Positions 26,032-35,173 of a DNA stretch of 35,259 nucleotides are shown one piece after another. The notes under the pieces are model-generated. The model searched no databases, had not been told where the DNA came from, and saw nothing but the letters and a program-made list of their open reading frames with translations. The stretch comes from a virus (taxonomy: Duplodnaviria; Caudoviricetes): positions 1 to 35,259 of the IMG/VR virus record IMGVR_UViG_3300010376_000088, one strand, 5' to 3'. The stretch's first letter is position 1. Each line of letters starts with the position of its first letter. Position numbers and translations under genes: made by a program.

Positions 26032-26098
26032 CTCCTTCGGACTCGGATCACGGTGCACCGGCTGGTGCACCCGCCCCCGCCATCGCGGGCGGGAGCGG
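26032..26098 (-). promoter_or_regulatory. Conserved structured leader A (before parB)
   Basis: CCGC[hairpin]GCGG-GUGCACC-N4-GGUGCAC-CGU-GAUCCGAGUC-CGAAGGAG. Confidence 0.85.
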
Positions 26099-26103
26099 GA
26101 ACA

Positions 26104-26304
26104 TCAGGCAGCCTTCGCCTTCTCGTCGGCGACCTGGACGGTCACGAGCAGGCTCTTGCCCTGCTCGAACGCCATCTCGCCGAGCGCCGTCTTGCGCACG
26201 TACAGCGAACCGATCTTCGCCTCTGCCATGCCCTCGACGACCTCCTCGAACTTGAACGTGCCCTTCGTCTCCTTCACGGGCTCGAACGTCAGCGTGAGGA
26301 TCAC
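26104..26304 (-). CDS. Small hypothetical protein
   Basis: 66 aa, SD AGGAGGT, GTGA-coupled. Confidence 0.75.
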   Translation of the reverse strand: MILTLTFEPVKETKGTFKFEEVVEGMAEAKIGSLYVRKTALGEMAFEQGKSLLVTVQVADEKAKAA

Positions 26305-26969
26305 TTGCTCACCTCCTTCTCCATCTCGGCCTCGACCAGCCCGCGCAGATGACTCAGCGCCTTGTCGAGGTTCAACTGCGCCGTGTTACGGCGGCCGCGA
26401 GCAGCCTCGACCGCACGCGCGGCCTCGGCGAGCTCGCCGTCGGGCCGCTCCGGCTCGACCTCCGACGCCCGGATCAGGTGCAACGGACCGCGCGGCTCAC
26501 CGCGCTTGTTCAGCCCGTTCCCGTTCCCGTCGCCGTTGCGCCGCTCGTGGAACTCGGCCTTCTTCTCGGCGGCGTGCTCCTCGCACAGCCGCCCGTACAT
26601 GCCCTTCTGCGTCAGCCACGGCTCGCCGCAGCCTTCGATCTTGCAGACGCGCCGCTGCTCGAGCGGGCGCGTCAACTCCTCCATCAGGTCACTCACGAGG
26701 TCCTTCCTCTCTTCGATGACGTCGGCGACCGGGAAGCCCCGGGCCACCATCCGAACGTCCGCCTCGCAGTCCTGCCAGGCGGTCGGTACCCACTCGCCGC
26801 GAGCGATCGCGTCGAGCTCCTCGCTGTCGCCGGACCACAGCGTTCGCAGCACGGCGATCTCCCGCACGACCGGCGGCTCCAACGGCAGCTCGACCAGGTG
26901 CGCGGGCAGCAGCACGTCGCCGAGGCGGCGGCCGAAGATCGGCTCGCCGCCCCTCGGCAACCGGTTCAC
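26301..26969 (-). CDS. Hypothetical protein with a CxxxGC...CxxH zinc-finger-like motif
   Basis: CKIEGCGEP...GRLCEEH; GTG 26969 overlaps the upstream stop. Confidence 0.65.
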   Translation of the reverse strand: MNRLPRGGEPIFGRRLGDVLLPAHLVELPLEPPVVREIAVLRTLWSGDSEELDAIARGEWVPTAWQDCEADVRMVARGFPVADVIEERKDLVSDLMEELTRPLEQRRVCKIEGCGEPWLTQKGMYGRLCEEHAAEKKAEFHERRNGDGNGNGLNKRGEPRGPLHLIRASEVEPERPDGELAEAARAVEAARGRRNTAQLNLDKALSHLRGLVEAEMEKEVSK

Positions 26970-27322
26970 GACCAGGCGAACAGCGCGTAGCCCTGGTCGG
27001 CGCAGCGCCGGAACCAGGCGGCGACGTTCGGCGCCCACTCCTGGGTCACGCCGATCTGCACGGCCGCGTCGAGCCCGGCCGCGATCTTCGCGACGTCGTC
27101 GGCGTCGTGGCTCTCGTACAGCGAGTAGCCCGTCATCTGCTCGACCCAGCTCGCATAGACGCCGCCGCGGATCCCGCTGCCCTTCTCGCCCGTGTCGGGC
27201 ACGCCGAGCGTGAAGATCCCGCGTGCCACGTCGATCTTCTCCAGCTCCTCGTCGTGCACGACCGGCACGAACGAGTCGCCCTTCTTCGGCAGCCTCTCGA
27301 CCGCCAGCACGTCGAGGCCCAT
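26966..27322 (-). CDS. Hypothetical protein
   Basis: TGATG-coupled start MGLDVLAVE. Confidence 0.7.
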   Translation of the reverse strand: MGLDVLAVERLPKKGDSFVPVVHDEELEKIDVARGIFTLGVPDTGEKGSGIRGGVYASWVEQMTGYSLYESHDADDVAKIAAGLDAAVQIGVTQEWAPNVAAWFRRCADQGYALFAWS

Positions 27323-27684
27323 CAGAACGACGAGCCCGAGACGGTCGCGATGCCGTACGCGGCCGACGTCTGCGCCTGGTCGACGACCGTCGTTCCGTCG
27401 AGCAGCGTCAGGTGGAGCGGCTCGCTCCCGCCGTCCTGCTTCTGCACGTCGGCGGCGGTGATCGCCAGGTCGTGGAAGCGGATCACGCGGCGGCCGCTCC
27501 CGTCGTAGGTCGACCCTCCGACGGCGCCCGACCACGAGCACGCGCAGTCGACCTCGAGCGCGTAGTCGTGCGTCTTCTTCGTCGCGTCGGTCGCGGCCTT
27601 GCTGGCGACCGCGACGAGCGCGACGCCCATGACGATGACGAGGGCGACGAACGCGCCGCCCCCGACTATGAGTGCGTTTCTCAC
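27322..27684 (-). CDS. Membrane-anchored exported protein (MmpS-like architecture)
   Basis: N-terminal TM helix LIVGGGAFVALVIVMGVALVAVA followed by a small beta-rich domain; SD GAAGGAGG. Confidence 0.75.
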   Translation of the reverse strand: MRNALIVGGGAFVALVIVMGVALVAVASKAATDATKKTHDYALEVDCACSWSGAVGGSTYDGSGRRVIRFHDLAITAADVQKQDGGSEPLHLTLLDGTTVVDQAQTSAAYGIATVSGSSF

Positions 27685-27689
27685 TTGTC

Positions 27690-27755
27690 CTCCTTCGGAC
27701 GTTTGACTCGGATCGGAGCGGGTGCTCCCGCCCCCGGCCAGGTGGCCGGGAGCGG
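27690..27755 (-). promoter_or_regulatory. Conserved structured leader B
   Basis: CCGC[hairpin]GCGG-GAGC-ACCC-GCUC-C-GAUCCGAGUC-N7-CGAAGGAG. Confidence 0.85.
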
Positions 27756-27761
27756 CACGCA

Positions 27762-28340
27762 TCAGCTCGACGACTTCCAGGCTCGCGCGCCTTCCTCGTA
27801 GTACGGGTTCGGCAGCGTCTCGCCCACTCGCTTGCCGGACTCGTCGAGGAAGAACTGCTTGCCCTCCGCGCCCTTGCGGCCCATCCGCCGGCCGCGCGCC
27901 GTGAACATGTCGAGCGCGTGGTCCGGGATCTCCATCTCCATCCCGGCCCGGTCGCCCATCCAGAACGCGAACACCGCGCTCAGGACGAGGCCGCTCTTCT
28001 TCGCTCGCACGAGCACGATGACGGCGTGCGCGAGGAACAGCGGCATCGCGTCCTCGTTCTTCGCCTTCTTCGCCTCGAGCCAGTTGTCGTTCAGCACGCG
28101 GACGAGGCGCACCGCGTCGGGGTCGGCCAGGCCGACGTCCTCGGACGCCATGATCCGCAGCCGCTTCCAGACGTAGTTCCCGTACCCGGCCAGGTCGAGC
28201 TCCGACGCCCAGAACAGCGCCTCGCGTTCGTCGCCGCGCCGCACCGCCTTCTGCAACGCGGACGCGACCTCGCCGTTCAGGAACCCGCCCGGCGTGTGCA
28301 GCTCGCTGAACGGCACGATCCGCTTACGCGGTTCAGCCAT
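27762..28340 (-). CDS. RarA/MgsA C-terminal-domain protein lacking the AAA+ ATPase
   Basis: SALQKAVRRGD...ALFW...WKRLRIMASEDVGLADP...LAHAVI...AKKS...IPDHALD; no Walker A. Confidence 0.8.
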   Translation of the reverse strand: MAEPRKRIVPFSELHTPGGFLNGEVASALQKAVRRGDEREALFWASELDLAGYGNYVWKRLRIMASEDVGLADPDAVRLVRVLNDNWLEAKKAKNEDAMPLFLAHAVIVLVRAKKSGLVLSAVFAFWMGDRAGMEMEIPDHALDMFTARGRRMGRKGAEGKQFFLDESGKRVGETLPNPYYEEGARAWKSSS

Positions 28341-28683
28341 CACTCTCCTCTCTCAGGAGCCAGCGGCCGACCGCCAGCTCGTCCTCGATCAACAACTCGT
28401 CGGCCTCGGTGTCGTACTGCCCGACGTACACGAGCTTGTCCCGGTCGACGTGCATCTGCGCGATCGTCGGGTAGCGCTCGACCATCCGGCCCGCCGCCTG
28501 GCGCACCTTCGCGTGGTACGAGCCGAGCCCGGGCGCCCCGTACAGGTTGCCTTCGAAGTACACCCGCATCAGCCCCTCGTGCTGCGTCGACGGCTCGCCG
28601 ACGATGCCCGACCCGGGCTTGATCACGGTCATCGCGTGGTTCGGCTCCACGTCGTCCGCCGGCACGTACACGTTCACCTTCAC
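28333..28683 (-). CDS. Hypothetical protein
   Basis: GTG 28683 coupled to the ligase stop; SD AGGGAGGG. Confidence 0.7.
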   Translation of the reverse strand: MKVNVYVPADDVEPNHAMTVIKPGSGIVGEPSTQHEGLMRVYFEGNLYGAPGLGSYHAKVRQAAGRMVERYPTIAQMHVDRDKLVYVGQYDTEADELLIEDELAVGRWLLREESDG

Positions 28684-29582
28684 GGTTCCCTCCCTACGTC
28701 CTTCGGGTTCTTGTCGTCGCGTACCCGCTTCAGCGCCGGGTGCAGGAGGCGCTCGTCCTCCGTCCACCGCTGGTACGCGACCTGGACGACGACCTCGGGC
28801 GCGATCCACGTCACGTCACGCGGCGCGTCCTTCGGCGTCTCGGCGAGCGGCGAGCGCTCGACGTTCTGGAAGCGCGACTCGAACTCGCGGTCGAGCTTCT
28901 CGTCTTGCCCGGCCCGCCCCGCGTACACGAGGTTCGGGCCGTCGTAGTACGCGAGCACCAGCCCGCCGATCCGGCCCGTGCGCCCGTTCTTGCCGGGCGT
29001 CCAGCCGACGACGACGAACTCCTGCTCCTGGCGCACCTTCACCTTCAGCCACAGCTCGCCGCGGTAGCCCTCGATGTAGCGGCTGCCCTTGCGCTTCGCG
29101 ACGATGCCCTCCAGGCCGCGGTCGACCACCCACGCCTGCAGCGCCTCCCCGTCGTCGAACGACGGCGAGAACTGCAGCGCCGTGTCGCCGGACCCGGCGA
29201 CGATCGCCTCGGCGAGGCCTCGCCGCTGCTCCAGCGGGTACGGACGGCAGTCGACCTCGCCGAGCTCGAGCACGTCGAACACGACGAAGCACGCGGCCCG
29301 TGCGCTTCCGGCGCCGGCGGCAAGCCCGAACGTGTTCCCGGCCTCGTCCGGCGTCACGATCTCGCCGTCGATCACGCAGTCGGGCAGCTCGGCGAGCGCT
29401 CGCGCGATCGCCGGGAACTGCACCTTCCACTCCGTCTTCGACGAGCGCGACTGCATCGTCACCTCGCCGTCGACGATCGTCGCGGTGCAGCGAACGCCGT
29501 CCCACTTGATCTCGTACAGCCAGCCGTCGCCGACCGGCAGCTCGCCCGCCTTCGCGAGCATCGGCTTGACGGTGGCGGCCAT
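28680..29582 (-). CDS. ligD: ATP-dependent DNA ligase (LigD ligase-domain type)
   Basis: KPMLA, YEIKWDGVR, IDGEIV, VFDVL, LEGIVAKR...SRY, WLKVK, LLHP motifs; TGATG-coupled to ku. Confidence 0.92.
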   Translation of the reverse strand: MAATVKPMLAKAGELPVGDGWLYEIKWDGVRCTATIVDGEVTMQSRSSKTEWKVQFPAIARALAELPDCVIDGEIVTPDEAGNTFGLAAGAGSARAACFVVFDVLELGEVDCRPYPLEQRRGLAEAIVAGSGDTALQFSPSFDDGEALQAWVVDRGLEGIVAKRKGSRYIEGYRGELWLKVKVRQEQEFVVVGWTPGKNGRTGRIGGLVLAYYDGPNLVYAGRAGQDEKLDREFESRFQNVERSPLAETPKDAPRDVTWIAPEVVVQVAYQRWTEDERLLHPALKRVRDDKNPKDVGREP

Positions 29583-30484
29583 CAGGCCGCCACCTTCTTC
29601 GCCCGCTTCGCCGCGGGCTTCTTCGCCGCGGCCTTCTTCGGCTTCGACTCGGCGACCGACGCCTGCAGCGCGGCCATCAGGTCGATCACCGGCGCGGCCT
29701 CGGGCGCGGCCGGGGCGACGAACGTCTCGCCCTTGTCGGCGGCCCGGATCGCGTCGTGCATCAGCGGCGTCCAGGTGTCCTGGGCCTCCGACGCGTCGAA
29801 CACGCCCTCGAGCGCGGCCAGCAGCGGCTGCGCCGCCTCGATCATCCGGTCGTCGACGGCCGGGCGCGCGGCCGCGGCCACGCGGATCAGCTCGGCGTCC
29901 GAGTGGCGGATCTTCTGCTCGAAGCGGATCGTCTCCGCGACGAGCACGCCGAGCTCCTCGTGCCAGCGGACGGCGAGCGTCTCCGTCTGCTTGTACAGCA
30001 CGACGTCGACCAGCGCCGCCCTCGCGGGCCGCGACCCGTCGACCGCCGGGCGCAGGAGCGCGACCAGGAGGTCGAACGCCTGCTCGTGCCCGGCCTGCGG
30101 GTACACCATGAACGCCTTCTCGGTGTACGCCGAGTCGATCTCGCCGGCCTCGACGATCCGCGTGATCACGCCTTGCCCGTCCGACGCCTCGCTCAGCGCC
30201 TTCACCGTCTCCGGGTCGACGACGACCATCCGGCCGGCGTCGTCGGGGTGCGGGTACGCGGTCAGCTTCTCCGCGTTCGGGACGACGTGCTCGTCCGGCG
30301 TCCCCTGCGAGCACAGGCTCACGCTCGCGAGGGCCGGGCCGTGCGTCGGGCACATGCCCTTGCCCGGCACCGGCCGGGCGTTGTCGGTCAGCGACTTGAT
30401 CGCCACCGACACGTTCACTAGGCCGAACCCGATCGTCAGCTTCTTGCCGTGCGACGGGGTCGGCAGCGTGGCGTCCTTCGCCAT
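29582..30484 (-). CDS. ku: Ku DNA end-binding protein
   Basis: IGFGLVNVSV N-terminal motif, FD...DTW, VIDLMAALQASV, basic KKxAAK tail. Confidence 0.88.
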   Translation of the reverse strand: MAKDATLPTPSHGKKLTIGFGLVNVSVAIKSLTDNARPVPGKGMCPTHGPALASVSLCSQGTPDEHVVPNAEKLTAYPHPDDAGRMVVVDPETVKALSEASDGQGVITRIVEAGEIDSAYTEKAFMVYPQAGHEQAFDLLVALLRPAVDGSRPARAALVDVVLYKQTETLAVRWHEELGVLVAETIRFEQKIRHSDAELIRVAAAARPAVDDRMIEAAQPLLAALEGVFDASEAQDTWTPLMHDAIRAADKGETFVAPAAPEAAPVIDLMAALQASVAESKPKKAAAKKPAAKRAKKVAA

Positions 30485-30490
30485 CACTTC

Positions 30491-30554
30491 CTCCTTCGGT
30501 TGACTCGGATCGGAGCGAACGCTCCCGCCGCCTCGTCCTCACGGGCGAGGGCGG
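30491..30554 (-). promoter_or_regulatory. Conserved structured leader C (before ku)
   Basis: CCGC[hairpin, GUGA loop]GCGG-GAGC-GUUC-GCUC-C-GAUCCGAGUC-AAC-CGAAGGAG. Confidence 0.85.
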
Positions 30555-30567
30555 CAACGCTCTCTCT

Positions 30568-30619
30568 CATAGGTGCTCAGGCTGGCGCGGCGGCGCATCA
30601 TGAGCAGGTATGCGCTATG
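30568..30619. repeat. 52-bp cassette, copy 3
   Basis: CATAGGTGCTCA-N21-TGAGCAGGTATGCGCTATG. Confidence 0.9.
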
Positions 30620-30633
30620 CGCTGGTGCCCGCG

Positions 30634-30756
30634 CTAGGCGGGCACCTTCTCCGGCTCGACGCGCTCGGGCGTCGGCGCCTCGATCGGCGCGGGCGCCTCG
30701 AACGGGTCTTCGATCGGCTCGACGATGATCGTCTTCTCGGGTTCTCCGATTTCCAT
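30634..30756 (-). CDS. 40-aa E/P-rich peptide (absent from the ORF track)
   Basis: SD GAGGAGGT; MEIGEPEKTIIVEPIEDPFEAPAPIEAPTPERVEPEKVPA. Confidence 0.65.
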   Translation of the reverse strand: MEIGEPEKTIIVEPIEDPFEAPAPIEAPTPERVEPEKVPA

Positions 30757-31251
30757 CTAGCTCACCTCCTCGGGGAACGTCGGCGTTGCGTTCAGCACGT
30801 TGTCGGGCAGGGCGGGCACGTCGTACAGCGCCTCGAGCGGCTCGATCCACTCCCACTGGTGGAACGGCACGAACAGCCGCACCACCCGTCCCTTCTCCGC
30901 GCGGTAGCCCTGCGACCCGGGGATCACCTTGCCGACGAGGCCGACCTCGCCGATCACGACCGGGTTCGGGCGCGACGCGCTCTCCTTGTTGTAGCCCATG
31001 CCCGACAGGTGCCTGCGGTCGCGGGCGGCGTACAGCCCGCAGGTGCAGCCCTCGCCGGGCACGCGCTTGTCCACGCACTTCCAGCAGTGCGTCTTGCCGT
31101 TGCACGTCGCGACCGTCCAGCGGTCGGGATGCCAGACGGTGCCGCCGTGGGTCACCGACCCGAGCAGCGGCATCCGCTTCGTCCCGATCACCTTCCAGGC
31201 GCGGTAGGCGACGATCTCGCCTACGACGTCGGGGACGACGATCTCACTCAT
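30757..31251 (-). CDS. Cys-rich hypothetical phage protein
   Basis: AYRAW...ATC...CTCGLYA...VIGEV...GKVI...GYRAE pattern. Confidence 0.75.
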   Translation of the reverse strand: MSEIVVPDVVGEIVAYRAWKVIGTKRMPLLGSVTHGGTVWHPDRWTVATCNGKTHCWKCVDKRVPGEGCTCGLYAARDRRHLSGMGYNKESASRPNPVVIGEVGLVGKVIPGSQGYRAEKGRVVRLFVPFHQWEWIEPLEALYDVPALPDNVLNATPTFPEEVS

Positions 31252-32425
31252 CGCCATCGCCGTCCTTCGCGTCTTCGAGGATCTGGCGCAGCACCTCGTC
31301 GACGTCCATCTGTTCGTCGGCCATCTCGACGTTGCCGTTCGGCTTCGCCTTCTTGCCCCGGCCCGCCTTCTTGTTCTCGTCCTTCGGGCCGAGCGAGCGG
31401 AGCAGCGGGTGGTCTTCGGGCAGCTCCCACACGAGGTACGAGCCCGGCCCGAAGCCGATCCGCCGCTTGACGACCTTCAGCTCGTCCGCCGCGCGGCGGA
31501 CGGTCATCTTCGACACGCCATGCTCGGCGGCCTTGTCGAACACGTCCTTCGCCGGGCACGGACCCTTCAGCAGCAGCAGCGCCAGGAACTCGGACGCGAC
31601 CGCCTTCTTCTCCGGGTTCTCGGCCTGGTAGCCGCTGCCCTTCCACTGCACGATCTCGGCGGCGGGCACCGGCGCCTCGTCGTTCACGTACACGAGGCGG
31701 GCCGTCTCCGACACCGTCCCGTCGGGCAGGTCGACCTCGACCGTGTCCATGTAGAACTCGACCGACGGCGTCTGGTCGTCGGCGTTGTTCGCCTTCGCGA
31801 CACCGAGGAACCGGCTCTCCGGCTCGCCCGGCCCCGCCGGTCCCAGGACGTGCGCGAAGCGCACGGTGCCGAGCCACCCACCGGATGCGCCACCGAACGC
31901 CTCCTGCGGATGCGCGTCCTTCGGCAGCCGCTTGTTCAGGTGGTGCACGCCGACGATCGCGACACCCGTCCGCTCGGCCATCGCGGCCAGCGGCTCCAGC
32001 GCCGTGTTCGGGTCCGACCCGCCGACGTGCTTCGCGATCGGGTCGATCGTCACCAGCTCGACGCCGTGGAACAGCACCAGCTCCTCGAGCATCTCGACGT
32101 CTTGCGGCAGCCGGAGCTTGCCCGGCCAGAAGTGCACGAGCCGCGTGTCGCACTCGGCCGCGAGCAGCCGCGGCACCTTCACGGCCGCCAGCTGATCCTC
32201 CGGGTTCGACATGATCACCGCGCCGCCGCGCTTCGTGACCTCGGCGGCCATCCAGCTCGTGAGCAGCGACTTGCCCTGGCCCGGGCGGCCACCGACGAGC
32301 GTGATCCCGCCCTTCAGGAACCGCTCGCCACCCGGCAGCTCGAGGAACGAGAGCTTCTCCGGCTTCACATCTGCCGCGCGGACGAGCTTCGTCGCCGGCG
32401 ACGTCTTCTTGCTAACTGCACCCAT
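31244..32425 (-). CDS. AAA_25 / RepA-like (RecA-fold) helicase
   Basis: Walker A GRPGQGKS, Walker B VTIDP, VHHLNK, AKAN motifs; ATG 32425 after GAAGGAGG. Confidence 0.85.
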   Translation of the reverse strand: MGAVSKKTSPATKLVRAADVKPEKLSFLELPGGERFLKGGITLVGGRPGQGKSLLTSWMAAEVTKRGGAVIMSNPEDQLAAVKVPRLLAAECDTRLVHFWPGKLRLPQDVEMLEELVLFHGVELVTIDPIAKHVGGSDPNTALEPLAAMAERTGVAIVGVHHLNKRLPKDAHPQEAFGGASGGWLGTVRFAHVLGPAGPGEPESRFLGVAKANNADDQTPSVEFYMDTVEVDLPDGTVSETARLVYVNDEAPVPAAEIVQWKGSGYQAENPEKKAVASEFLALLLLKGPCPAKDVFDKAAEHGVSKMTVRRAADELKVVKRRIGFGPGSYLVWELPEDHPLLRSLGPKDENKKAGRGKKAKPNGNVEMADEQMDVDEVLRQILEDAKDGDGDE

Positions 32426-32432
32426 TCTGGGC

Positions 32433-32521
32433 CTCCTTCGTGAACGGCCTCGCGGCCGCGTTGCGTTGACTCGGATCACGGAGCGGATGCTCCCGCACTG
32501 ATTCCGGCGGAATCAGCGCGG
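32433..32521 (-). promoter_or_regulatory. Conserved structured leader D (before the helicase); its first hairpin is palindrome copy 4 (32500-32514)
   Basis: CCGC-G-CUGAUUCC-GCC-GGAAUCAG-U-GCGG-GAGC-AUCC-GCUC-CGU-GAUCCGAGUCAA...GUUCACGAAGGAG. Confidence 0.85.
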
Positions 32522-32527
32522 CAACGT

Positions 32528-32842
32528 CTACGCCTTGCGACTGGCGACCGGCTCGTCGACGACCTCGACGCCGATCCCTTCGCCGAGCAGCCGGTCCCAC
32601 ATCGACTTCTCGGTCTCGGCCGCGGTGAACGCGGCGAACACGGCCTCGGCCTGCAGCCCGTGGACGATGCCCACCCGCTGCTCGGTCGCGCCACCGGCGA
32701 CCGCGCGCAGCGCGGCCTCGATCTGGTCAAGCTCTGCGCGCGCTGACCAGATCGCGTTCAGCGCCGCCTCCATCTTCTCGTCGGCGTCCGCGGACAGGCG
32801 GTGAAGCATCTCCACGGCGACGTCGATCTGTGCTGCGTCCAT
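32528..32842 (-). CDS. Hypothetical protein
   Basis: 104 aa, SD GAAGGAG. Confidence 0.75.
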   Translation of the reverse strand: MDAAQIDVAVEMLHRLSADADEKMEAALNAIWSARAELDQIEAALRAVAGGATEQRVGIVHGLQAEAVFAAFTAAETEKSMWDRLLGEGIGVEVVDEPVASRKA

Positions 32843-32848
32843 CTCGTT

Positions 32849-32915
32849 CTCCTTCGTTCGACTCGGATCGTTCGGAGCAGGCGCTCCCGCCAGCCGCCCT
32901 CGCGGGCGGCGGCGG
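32849..32915 (-). promoter_or_regulatory. Conserved structured leader E
   Basis: CCGC[hairpin, GCGA loop]GCGG-GAGC-GCCU-GCUC-CGAAC-GAUCCGAGUC-GAA-CGAAGGAG. Confidence 0.85.
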
Positions 32916-32917
32916 CA

Positions 32918-33154
32918 TCACCAGCCAACGTCGACGAACAGGCGCACGAGCCAGCGCGCCTTCTTCAGCGCGCCCTCGCGCGTCGTCACCTGGCCGAGCA
33001 TCTCGCGGATCTGGTCGTCGTCGTACGCCTCGACGATCACGTCCCACCCACCGTCGTTGTAGTGGTCGAGCGCGTACGCCTTGACGTACTCGACCAGCTC
33101 GTCGGTCGTGTACTGCGGGTTCACGTACCCCTTCGTCGTGTCGGGCGCGGTCAT
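32918..33154 (-). CDS. Hypothetical protein
   Basis: TGATG-coupled start MTAPDTTKGY; 78 aa. Confidence 0.75.
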   Translation of the reverse strand: MTAPDTTKGYVNPQYTTDELVEYVKAYALDHYNDGGWDVIVEAYDDDQIREMLGQVTTREGALKKARWLVRLFVDVGW

Positions 33155-33435
33155 CAGACGAGCTCCTCGAGCTGCTCGCGCAGCTCGATCAGCGCGTCGA
33201 CGGCCGCGCGCTGCTCCTCGATCACGGAGCCGAGGTCGCGATCGCCGATCGGCAGCGTCTTCGCGAACTCGATCAGCGCGCTCAGCTCGCGCGCCTTCGT
33301 GCGGATCGTGTTGTTCGTCCGCGTCGCGACCACGTCGGTCGTCGACTCGAACGACAAGCCCTGGTCGGCGACGCCGCGGACGGCGACGCCCGCGCGGCTG
33401 GCCGCGTCGAGCATGTTCAGCGTGTTCGTGTGCAT
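33154..33435 (-). CDS. Hypothetical protein, first gene of the early arm
   Basis: 93 aa, SD GAAGGAG. Confidence 0.75.
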   Translation of the reverse strand: MHTNTLNMLDAASRAGVAVRGVADQGLSFESTTDVVATRTNNTIRTKARELSALIEFAKTLPIGDRDLGSVIEEQRAAVDALIELREQLEELV

Positions 33436-33449
33436 CTCTTTCTCCTTCG

Positions 33450-34086
33450 TTCGTTGTCTTCACGTACAACGGGCGGCCATTCGGCCGCCCGTGAATCGCC
33501 GCTACGGAATCGAACCGTCCACGGCGACAGGCGCGATCTACCACTCGCGCCTTGCTCTGATCGAATCTGCTCGCTGTCCCTCTCGCGTCCGTGCGTGCGA
33601 CGCGGTGTGTCCTGGCGAGCCACCCATGCGGATCGAGGGCGACCACGCCCTCGTACTCGGCGAGCGTCCGGCGCGACTCGATCGCGAACGCCTACTCCCT
33701 CTCGTCGTGTCCTACCGACGAGCCTTTCGACTCGCGGCGACGGCTCGTTCGTTACCGGCCGTCGTCGCTCACGCGATCGTCGTCGTGCCTTTCACTCGCT
33801 TTCACCCGCTCGATCTGGGTGCCGGGGACCGCTGACTGGCGCTGACGCCTAACCCGGTTCTCGTGCCCGTTGCCGATCGCGAAGTTCCTCCTCGCTTCCT
33901 TCCTCGCTGCCTGAGCTTGCGCTCTCCCACTTCCGGTCGTCTTACGAGCACCGGTCGGGCGGGCAGGCGTTTCACCGGGGGCTTTCGCAATCCCGGATCG
34001 GAAGCTGTGTTCTGGCTCCGCTGGGCCGCTCGGAGAAGACAGGGCGCGCTCGCTGGTGACTGTCGCGGTGTCTTTCTCTCTGGTCT
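33450..34086 (-). ncRNA. Putative large structured RNA / 5' leader of the early transcript
   Basis: No credible ORF; dense hairpins, GAAA and GCAA tetraloops, nested multibranch pairing, D-loop-like and T-loop-like hairpins. Confidence 0.65.
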
Positions 34087-34092
34087 ACTTTA

Positions 34093-34121
34093 AGCATAGC
34101 ACATAGGCGCTCACGGGCGAA
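34093..34121 (-). promoter_or_regulatory. Leftward early promoter
   Basis: TTCGCC-N17-TATGCT with extended TGn; a TGAGCnnnTATG half-site lies in the spacer. Confidence 0.55.
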
Positions 34122-34183
34122 GCGAAAACCCCTGCAAACGGGCACATTTGAGCCACTATGCTGTCGCCCGCGAGGGCAACGGC

Positions 34184-34212
34184 TTGGCCCGTCCGGCGCA
34201 CCCGGCTACACT
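34184..34212 (+). promoter_or_regulatory. Rightward SigA-like promoter
   Basis: TTGGCC-N17-TACACT; predicted start ~34218. Confidence 0.65.
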
Positions 34213-34217
34213 CCACC

Positions 34218-34346
34218 ATGCCGTCCGAGTCGGGTCGCTTTCTCTCTGGTCAGAGCTGGTTGCCTCCTCGGACGGCGCTGCTCGGGGCTCCGCCATCTCC
34301 TTCGTGAACCTTGACTCGGATCGCGTAGCGGCGGAGCCCGGGCAGC
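34218..34346 (+). ncRNA. Putative trans-acting antisense RNA with two stem-loops
   Basis: Stem 1 34220-34229/34267-34276 (10 bp); stem 2 34277-34294/34330-34346 (17 bp, one bulge, one U-G); loops complementary to early-transcript elements. Confidence 0.65.
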
Positions 34347-35173
34347 TCGAGCATCTGGCGATCGACCTGCCCGCCGGCACCGTGACCGTGCGCGAGGTCG
34401 GCGACGTCTGGCAGTCGGAGCAGACGTTCGACCTCGACGACCCGCGGGCCTTCGAGGCGATCTCGATCGCCTGGCTGCGCTGCGCCTGGGACGTCAAGCA
34501 CCAGTGGTCGTACAGCTGGTTCGGCCGCCCGATCATCCAGCTGCCCGAGGACATGTTCCGCGTCCAGGAGCTCGTCTGGCGGCTGCGCCCGGACGTCATC
34601 CTCGAGACGGGCGTCGCCCACGGCGGCTCGCTCGTCTTCTACGCCTCGCTCTGCAAGGCGCTCGGCCACGGCCGCGTCATCGGCGTCGAGCTGCCGCGCA
34701 GCCCGGACCTCGACCACCGCGACGCGATCATGCAGCACCCGCTCGCCGACTACATCACGCTCATCCACGGCGACTCGATCGCGGCCGACGTCGTCGACCG
34801 CGTCTACGACGACATCGGCGTCCCGCGCATAGGTGCTCAACCGCACGCGCCGCCGACCGTGCTGCTGCTGCTCGACTCCGACCACAGCCGCTCGCACGTC
34901 ATCTCCGAACTCGTCGCCTACGGCCCGCTCGTCACGCCGGGCTCGTACGCGATCGTGCAGGACGGCTTCATCCAGTCACTCGTCGCCCGCACGCACGGCC
35001 CACGCGCGAACCCGGACTGGGCGACGAACAATGCGCTCGTCGGCGCCCGCGCCTTCGTCGCCGCCAACGCCGACGACTGGGCGATCGGCCCGCCCGACCC
35101 GCCCTTCGACGAGGGCGTCGCGCCCCACTCGGCGACCCACTTCACCGGCGGCTGGCTGCGCCGCCTCCGCTGA
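34304..35173 (+). CDS. CmcI-family (cephalosporin hydroxylase / rhamnosyl O-methyltransferase-like) SAM-dependent methyltransferase; start uncertain
   Basis: YSWFGRPIIQLPEDM...QELVWRLRPDVILETGVAHGGSL...GDS...LDSDHSRSHV...ELVAYGPLVTPGSYAIVQD. Confidence 0.88.
   Translation: MNLDSDRVAAEPGQLEHLAIDLPAGTVTVREVGDVWQSEQTFDLDDPRAFEAISIAWLRCAWDVKHQWSYSWFGRPIIQLPEDMFRVQELVWRLRPDVILETGVAHGGSLVFYASLCKALGHGRVIGVELPRSPDLDHRDAIMQHPLADYITLIHGDSIAADVVDRVYDDIGVPRIGAQPHAPPTVLLLLDSDHSRSHVISELVAYGPLVTPGSYAIVQDGFIQSLVARTHGPRANPDWATNNALVGARAFVAANADDWAIGPPDPPFDEGVAPHSATHFTGGWLRRLR

What the first reader, a model, noticed from the sequence alone, without database searches (positions are those of the whole stretch)
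26032..32915. Five copies of an apparently unnamed cis-RNA motif in the early-arm intergenic gaps
Seen at 26032-26098, 27690-27755, 30491-30554, 32433-32521 and 32849-32915 (minus strand). Pattern: CCGC-[hairpin of different sequence each time]-GCGG, directly abutting GAGC-N4-GCUC, then invariant GAUCCGAGUC, then CGAAGGAG and the start codon. Copy A has GUGC/GCAC in place of GAGC/GCUC, a compensatory change. Structure is conserved while sequence varies. Inference: the abutting stems could be a processing or stability signal, a protein-binding platform, or an antitermination element (HK022 put RNA is a two-stem precedent). Mycobacteriophage start-associated sequences are a looser analogue.
Basis: seen in the sequence. 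Interest (0 to 1): 0.85.

Follow-up and report, generated by a model that had tools for sequence, protein, structure and literature searches.

The report
Two-loop phage RNA targets early genes
Five early genes of an uncultured soil phage start with the same short tag behind a folded RNA signal, and the phage also encodes a predicted small RNA whose two loops match that tag and the predicted start of the early message; tag and loops change together in related phages, so one RNA likely switches the early programme off.

Summary
The five copies are real. It lies in a predicted 130-nt two-hairpin RNA on the opposite strand (34218-34347). Loop 2 is complementary to the box and Shine-Dalgarno of the five genes; loop 1 to 14 nt at the predicted 5' end of the early transcript.

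Four related phages carry the element. Three different boxes each match their own loop. Three different transcript heads match their own loop 1 in four of five phages; the most distant has no such loop. In one relative the RNA gene is inverted and the loops still read antisense (prediction noted before looking).

The hairpins are a separate module. It has two competing folds and also occurs in an unrelated 88-kb phage with no antisense copy found; it is possibly an RNase III-type cut site.

Most likely mechanism: a trans-acting antisense repressor of early genes. It works like P1 C4 or P4 CI but is not a member (no Rfam match). No RNA data exist; whether it acts in lysogeny or in lytic timing is open. 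Earlier scan notes report similar layouts in other phages.

The parts
34218..34347 (+). Predicted two-hairpin antisense RNA. Both ends are inferred; its 3' half overlaps the called start (GTG 34304) of a CmcI-family methyltransferase gene
   Evidence: Fold z -5.9; homologues in L032, L023, L068; CmcI start
34238..34251 (+). Loop 1: 14-nt perfect complement of the predicted early-transcript 5' end
34296..34322 (+). Loop 2: anti-SD (CUCCUUCG) plus anti-box (GACUCGGAUC)
34184..34212 (+). Promoter-like TTGGCC-N17-TACACT for the antisense RNA, read by eye; below the scanner's threshold
   Evidence: L032 TTGACC-N16-TACACT, L023 TAGACG-N18-TATGCT; one search found 0 sites
34093..34121 (-). Promoter-like TTCGCC-N17-TATGCT of the early arm, read by eye, with an operator-like half-site in its spacer
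   Evidence: TTGACG-N17-TATGCT in L032 and L023
34072..34085 (-). Head of the predicted early transcript, target of loop 1
33436..34087 (-). About 650-nt structured early leader with a T-arm-like end; its first helix uses the loop-1 target
   Evidence: z -5.05, 20 shuffles
32849..32915 (-). Copy E: hairpin module + box + SD before ORF 32842
32433..32521 (-). Copy D: before the AAA_25 ATPase gene (32425)
30491..30554 (-). Copy C: before the Ku gene (30487)
27690..27755 (-). Copy B: before ORF 27684
26032..26098 (-). Copy A: before the ParB-like gene (26025); U-A swap in the second stem

Best explanation
The five repeats are likely the binding sites of a predicted phage small RNA (34218-34347, + strand) whose second loop would cover the box and ribosome-binding site of five early genes and whose first loop would pair with the predicted first 14 bases of the early transcript, so that one RNA likely shuts the early programme down. 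Shown: the complementarity, its co-change across phages, and the loop positions in predicted folds. Inferred: transcription from a promoter facing away from the early promoter; block of translation initiation at the ATPase, Ku (with the ligase gene behind it) and ParB-like genes; and disruption of the leader's first helix, leading to termination or decay. Most likely role (about 0.5): holding the prophage quiet and blocking kin phages. The upstream hairpins are a separate module. Likeliest (about 0.4) it is an RNase III-type stem of about one helical turn; after a cut near the junction, GGAGC..GCUCC would refold as a protective 5' hairpin just ahead of the box.
For: BOX AND LOOP 2: three box types each match only their own phage's loop: GAUCCGAGUC (window, L023, L032), CAGCUGAGUC (L068) and UUCCAGGGACUC (L086). 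In G002 and G003 the only copy beyond the three gene-start copies lies in the hairpin loop (4 of 4 matches accounted for in each). Duplex energies for GAUCC-box targets are -28 to -48 kcal/mol with own-class loops vs -15 to -26 with the L068 loop; L068 targets are -29 to -38 cognate vs -19 to -27. The five box genes rank 1-5 of 45 gene starts. LOOP 1: perfect matches of 14, 13, 10 (15 with one mismatch) and 12 nt in window, L032, L023, L068; shuffles reaching this: 0, 1, 0, 0 of 1000. ORIENTATION: in L068 the gene is inverted yet reads antisense; this prediction was noted. The antisense strand folds better in 4 of 5 and has more G-U pairs in 4 of 5, tied in one. NO CONSERVED REPRESSOR: an XRE-family protein over the cut-off only in G001, apart from the ParB helix-turn-helix in G002. 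MODULE: second stem fully paired in 16 of 16 boxed copies with three compensatory changes (one spurious row dropped); loop-to-junction length 8-13 nt in 28 of 32; E. coli RNase III needs an 11-bp helix (PMC1540722).
Against: Expression, ends and effect are not shown. Both promoters are read by eye; the scanner found none. In L032 the opposite strand folds better (-80.4 vs -71.1), and in the window the opposite strand has a similar z (-6.4 vs -5.9). The loops are partly self-paired in the predicted fold. L086 has no head-matching loop (5 nt; 590 of 1000 shuffles as good), has anti-box and anti-SD in swapped order, and one of its three targets pairs as well with the window's loop (-28.6 vs -27.9). 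By energy the L023 head is not among the five best non-self sites for its loop 1, and in the window the head leads the next site by only 0.2 kcal/mol. A box-less start (26304) scores nearly as well as the weakest target. G002 has no integrase of three families tested, which weakens the lysogeny role. An operator-like repeat in the early promoter implies a protein regulator too. The hairpins raise box accessibility in only 5 of 15 copies and barely change SD accessibility. G-C pairs next to the cut suppress E. coli RNase III. Only five genomes.
Confidence: 0.72

Rival explanations
1. Same pairing, but the RNA is a lytic-cycle timer that turns early genes off as infection proceeds, not a lysogeny or immunity factor.
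For: G002 keeps the whole system without a detectable integrase. Dispersed operator-like sites and an XRE protein in G001 could provide protein repression.
Against: Three of the four genomes tested have a tyrosine integrase. G002 has a ParB-like gene and a replication-initiator-like frame with short repeats, so it could persist as a plasmid. In four of five phages the RNA's promoter faces away from the early promoter, the place a repressor gene usually takes (recalled lambda layout).
Confidence: 0.3
2. The box is a DNA site for a phage protein (stoperator-like), and the sixth copy is just another operator.
For: Short asymmetric sites, all in one orientation in the window, near gene starts.
Against: The extra copy also carries the SD complement inside a long hairpin. 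It flips orientation in L068 together with the strand bearing G-U pairs. Loop 1 follows transcript heads, which a DNA operator does not explain. No conserved repressor was found.
Confidence: 0.07
3. The RNA is a two-loop adaptor: loop 1 holds the large structured leader RNA and loop 2 docks it on each early gene start, for cleavage or activation.
For: The loops sit on separate hairpins and could bind two RNAs at once. The leader is 400-650 nt, strongly folded, and shares short blocks in four phages.
Against: L086 lacks loop 1. The L068 leader lacks the shared blocks. Covering the SD already explains repression. The leader has no Rfam match.
Confidence: 0.07
4. For the hairpin module only: a translational-coupling switch. 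A ribosome ending the upstream gene melts the 5' extension so that the second hairpin forms and the downstream start opens.
For: A stop triplet (any frame) lies 4-13 nt before the first stem in 13 of 16 copies, and it is the upstream gene's real stop for window copies A, B, D, E. Blocking the 5' side makes the second stem's 5' strand pair downstream at 0.74 or more in 13 of 16.
Against: Predicted SD accessibility hardly changes between the two states. Three copies follow an operator-like pair, not a stop codon.
Confidence: 0.2
5. The repeats are DNA recombination or gene-shuffling sites.
For: They flank variable small genes.
Against: Frequent U-G pairs on the mRNA strand point to RNA. Near-identical contigs (0-2 other letters) run collinearly across the copies they cover (table 8; contigs show presence only).
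Confidence: 0.03

Closest known systems
C4 antisense RNA of phages P1 and P7 (Rfam C4 family; passages of PMC5320573)
   Same: Trans-acting phage RNA with exposed loops. One segment covers the ribosome-binding site and a second gives phage-specific recognition; few changes separate immunity groups.
   Different: C4 is about 77 nt, has three stem-loops, is cut out by RNase P and (recalled) targets the icd-ant operon in Proteobacteria. Here: about 130 nt, two hairpins, a divergent promoter-like site, five dispersed gene starts plus the transcript head, and no Rfam match.
CI RNA of satellite phage P4 (passage of PMC4825925)
   Same: RNA that pairs with sites in the early leader to stop replication-gene expression.
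   Different: CI is processed from the same transcript and pairs with seqA and seqC flanking it to cause termination. Here the RNA is a separate gene and also targets distant ribosome-binding sites.
Start-associated sequences (SAS) of cluster K mycobacteriophages (PMC3203893 section 15 part 1; PMC11373665 passages)
   Same: A private tag at starts of non-structural genes after long gaps, one orientation, function open ('RNA or protein'), plus one reverse copy not at a start. In Angelica that copy sits in a 10-nt loop of a long hairpin, in a stretch kept in 138 phage records.
   Different: Different sequence. SAS overlaps the SD, while here the box is upstream of it. ESAS repeats are DNA-like promoter elements; here the upstream part is a covarying RNA hairpin. 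No head-matching loop was looked for in cluster K.
RNase III sites of the T7 early transcript (R1.1; PMC1540722 abstract and passages; the T7 role is recalled)
   Same: Hairpins of about one helical turn between early genes.
   Different: Stems here are GC-rich, lack the UA/UG distal box and carry a conserved G-G mismatch; cleavage is untested.

Membership tests
C4 antisense RNA | Match to the Rfam covariance model | tested here: not met
   No match at gathering score in the window or six related loci; none at E<=5 in 32400-34400
C4 antisense RNA | Three stem-loops, about 77 nt | tested here: not met
   Two hairpins, about 130 nt
C4 antisense RNA | Bipartite pairing: RBS segment plus specificity segment | tested here: met
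   anti-SD plus anti-box in loop 2, cognate-specific
C4 antisense RNA | RNase P processing | not testable with these tools
   no RNA reads to lay
P4 CI RNA | RNA lies inside the regulated transcript between its two targets | tested here: not met
   Separate gene upstream of the early promoter
P4 CI RNA | Pairing causes premature termination | not testable with these tools
   needs transcript mapping
Cluster K SAS | 13-nt consensus GGGATAGGAGCCC at gene starts | tested here: not met
   The repeated tags here are different
Cluster K SAS | Asymmetric tag at non-structural gene starts with one lone non-start copy | tested here: met
RNase III substrate | At least 11 bp of helix between cut and loop | tested here: inconclusive
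   8-13 nt to the junction in 28 of 32; cut position unknown
RNase III substrate | Cleavage by RNase III | not testable with these tools
   needs in vitro cleavage or 5'-end mapping
HK022 put RNA | Cis-acting suppression of downstream termination | not testable with these tools
   No Rfam match of any family; function untested

The most novel reading that the evidence does not exclude
An RNA-only master switch. A two-loop RNA takes the place of the protein repressor, reading the first bases of the early transcript with one loop and a private tag on processed early mRNAs with the other. The loops drift in step with their targets and so define immunity groups. At the boldest, the RNA splints the 650-nt structured leader onto each tagged start as an RNA machine. 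The same logic would explain the unexplained SAS of cluster K mycobacteriophages.
Probability: 0.25. Interest if true: 0.88.

Novelty: new variant of a known kind. Interest (0 to 1): 0.7.

Why it matters
The characterised phage antisense repressors met in the papers read (C4, CI, OOP) act on one operon or overlap their target. A single RNA that controls a dispersed set of early genes and the transcript head, with targets built into the genome and co-evolving with it, would be a distinct way to run a phage life-cycle switch. The loop-swap pattern gives ready specificity tests. The same layout at Angelica's lone reverse SAS makes a question open since 2011 testable in a laboratory host. The hairpin module, shared with an unrelated phage, may be a general processing signal in GC-rich phages. 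The score is held down because earlier notes of this scan report the general layout in many other genomes and no RNA evidence exists.

Tried and rejected
- Rfam scans of the window and relatives: nothing at gathering; E-value hits were weak and unrelated. ARAGORN found no tRNA or tmRNA.
- A strict motif pattern found 0 viral contigs; it was too narrow. The box+SD pattern gave 22 stretches, of which 3 were one true relative.
- L033 (36% ATPase identity) shows no such element in the 3.9 kb held upstream (by eye). L087 and L088 were not family members.
- Annotated phages: no DNA match above chance and only proteins under 60% identity (best listed 24-30%).
- No RNA holder listed; three DNA runs were laid.
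- The covariance model of four RNAs found only its own members, not the L086 hairpin (21 sources).
- The idea that hairpins simply keep the box open got weak support.
- The 29-codon frame in the RNA is not kept in L032, so it is rejected as the function.
- The Atlas search did not name the host.
- G004: no exact reverse copy of its 10-nt tag.
- Earlier-finding look-ups by place and sequence were empty.
- No structure or complex prediction was run; none bears on the claim.
Full report
CONTEXT. The window is a linear virus record estimated 80% complete, held by soil DNA runs. It encodes a tyrosine integrase, excisionase, a contractile tail, terminase, portal and capsid. Its leftward early arm carries an AAA_25 ATPase, Ku, an ATP-dependent ligase, an MgsA_C protein and a ParB-like protein; a CmcI-family methyltransferase gene faces the other way (50 hand-picked frames scanned). 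The host is not determined; an actinobacterium is my inference from the GC-rich sequence, the gene content and distant hits to Mycobacterium and Microbacterium phages.

OBSERVATION. All five copies exist as described. The exact 10-nt box occurs six times, all on the minus strand, against at most 3 in 300 approximate shuffles. With one mismatch it is not enriched. The sixth copy, at 34313-34322, is not at a gene start.

THE SIXTH COPY. On the plus strand, 34218-34347 folds into two long hairpins (-76.6 kcal/mol, z -5.9). Loop 2 holds the complement of the SD and of the box. Loop 1 holds a 14-nt perfect complement of 34085-34072, the longest such match in the window, starting 7 nt after a TATGCT hexamer. 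Promoter-like sites for both directions are visible by eye and keep their position in relatives, but the strict scanner found none. The five box genes rank first to fifth among 45 gene starts for pairing with loop 2; the sixth, a box-less start, is close behind.

RELATIVES. Four were found: L023/G001, L032, L068/G002 and L086/G003, with ATPase identity of 76, 87 (first 76 residues), 65 and 36%. L023 and L032 share the box; their RNA homologues lie at the same place. G001 has one more exact box inside its integrase frame, without an SD. L068 uses CAGCUGAGUC at three starts. I wrote down the predicted loop before reading on. The only other match in that genome is a reverse copy in the loop of a two-hairpin element whose gene is inverted, and whose first loop matches that phage's own transcript head. 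L086 uses UUCCAGGGACUC at three starts; its fourth copy is in the loop of a single divergent hairpin.

SPECIFICITY. Loop 1 pairs with its own head at -26.1, -27.9, -27.5 and -23.8 kcal/mol. Window and L032 share a head and cross-react; other non-cognate pairs give -5 to -17. Perfect match lengths of 14, 13, 10 and 12 were reached by 0, 1, 0 and 0 of 1000 shuffles. L086 has none (5 nt). The window-type RNAs also have a 9-nt match to the L068 head through loop 2. Loop 2 prefers its own box class by about 8-27 kcal/mol among window, L032, L023 and L068; for L086 two of three targets prefer their own loop.

STRAND. The antisense strand folds better in 4 of 5 phages and has more G-U pairs in 4 of 5, with one tie. 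L032 is the exception for energy. The RNA is independent of the methyltransferase gene, which was found beside it only in window, L023 and L032.

HAIRPIN MODULE. In 16 boxed copies from five phages the second stem is GG(A/U)G(C/U) paired with its complement, with A-U to U-A twice, C-G to U-A once and one G-U. It abuts the first stem with a gap of 0-1 nt (one row that was the RNA's own stem dropped). Box-less copies exist in L023 and L068. A scan for second stem plus SD gave 72 stretches; besides G001, one had several copies. That phage (G004, 88 kb) has no protein shared with my query set, and has the module before 13 of its 18 tagged starts with no exact reverse tag. Across 32 copies the first stem can extend over the 5' strand of the second in a fixed register: paired (28), G-G mismatch (23), U-A or A-U (27) (about five rows were mis-registered by the script and kept in the counts). 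Loop-to-junction length is 8-13 nt in 28 of 32. Removing the 5' side lets the second stem's 5' strand pair downstream in 13 of 16. This fits a cut-then-refold signal. E. coli RNase III needs 11 bp but dislikes G-C pairs beside the cut (PMC1540722), so the enzyme is an inference. Ribosome-driven switching is the rival.

MECHANISM. Shown: complementarity, co-change, predicted loop display. Inferred: the RNA is made from the divergent promoter; loop 2 blocks initiation at the ATPase, Ku and ParB-like genes and two small frames; loop 1 invades the leader's first helix (head paired in window, L032, L023; unpaired in L068). Lysogeny or immunity is the likeliest role. Integrases are present in G000, G001 and G003. 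An XRE protein passes the cut-off only in G001; the G002 match is its ParB helix-turn-helix and the G003 match is below cut-off. Against this: G002 has no integrase of three families, the window lacks about a fifth of the genome, and an operator-like inverted pair brackets the early promoter.

COMPARISON WITH WHAT IS KNOWN. It works like C4 (PMC5320573 passages) and P4 CI (PMC4825925 passage) but fails their structural and positional tests and has no Rfam match. The SAS paper (PMC3203893 passages and section 15 part 1) leaves function open and notes a lone reverse site; a 2024 paper still calls the role ill-defined (PMC11373665 passages). In Angelica the reverse site lies in a hairpin loop inside an annotated hypothetical gene, and the stretch is kept in 138 records. 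Ten literature searches and passages of PMC7067206, PMC13501541 and bioRxiv 2024.10.31.621285 showed no description of this system. Subscription papers are mostly absent. Altuvia 2018 and Sprenger 2024 were seen only as references. No supplements were read; Fig. S3 of the SAS paper may bear on the reverse site. Earlier notes of this scan describe the same kind of layout in other phages; they are not independent evidence.

VERDICT. Real feature; new variant of a known kind; antisense control 0.72; interest 0.7.

Noticed in passing
window minus 34160/34113, 30613/30579, 24674/24640, 3021/2987; also G001 and G002: Operator-like inverted pair (CATA..CTCA, about 22-nt spacer, TGAGCACCTATG), four to five times per genome, one pair bracketing the early promoter with a longer spacer; G002 has a variant sequence. 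A ParB-like protein as binder, as with KorB or N15 SopB, is a recalled lead.
   Followed up: partly
window 33436-34087 (-): Large structured early leader (z -5.05) with a conserved AGAUCGAGC block in four phages and a T-arm-like end in three; no Rfam match.
   Followed up: partly
L089 18560-18690 (Angelica 58554-58689): The lone reverse SAS of a cluster K mycobacteriophage lies in a 10-nt loop of a long hairpin; the stretch is kept in 138 phage records.
   Followed up: partly
G004:C1:66700-86600 (L128, L164-L181): Unrelated 88-kb phage with 18 copies of the tag AGGAGGGTAC, all one strand, most behind the same hairpin module; no exact reverse copy.
   Followed up: partly
window about 650-690: A tRNA-like 3' half inside the end of the integrase gene, a possible attP core (by eye).
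   Followed up: no
window 27762-30487 (-): Ku, an ATP-dependent ligase and a stand-alone MgsA C-terminal domain protein are kept in window, L023 and L068: a phage end-joining kit.
   Followed up: no
window 34304-35173 (+): The called start of the CmcI-family methyltransferase lies inside loop 2, so the antisense RNA may double as an mRNA leader.
   Followed up: partly
L082 290-1140 (-), G002: Replication-initiator-like frame with short tandem repeats in a genome with no detectable integrase; possible plasmid prophage.
   Followed up: no
L068 13000-13700: Low-complexity repeated tract between the antisense RNA gene and the early promoter.
   Followed up: no
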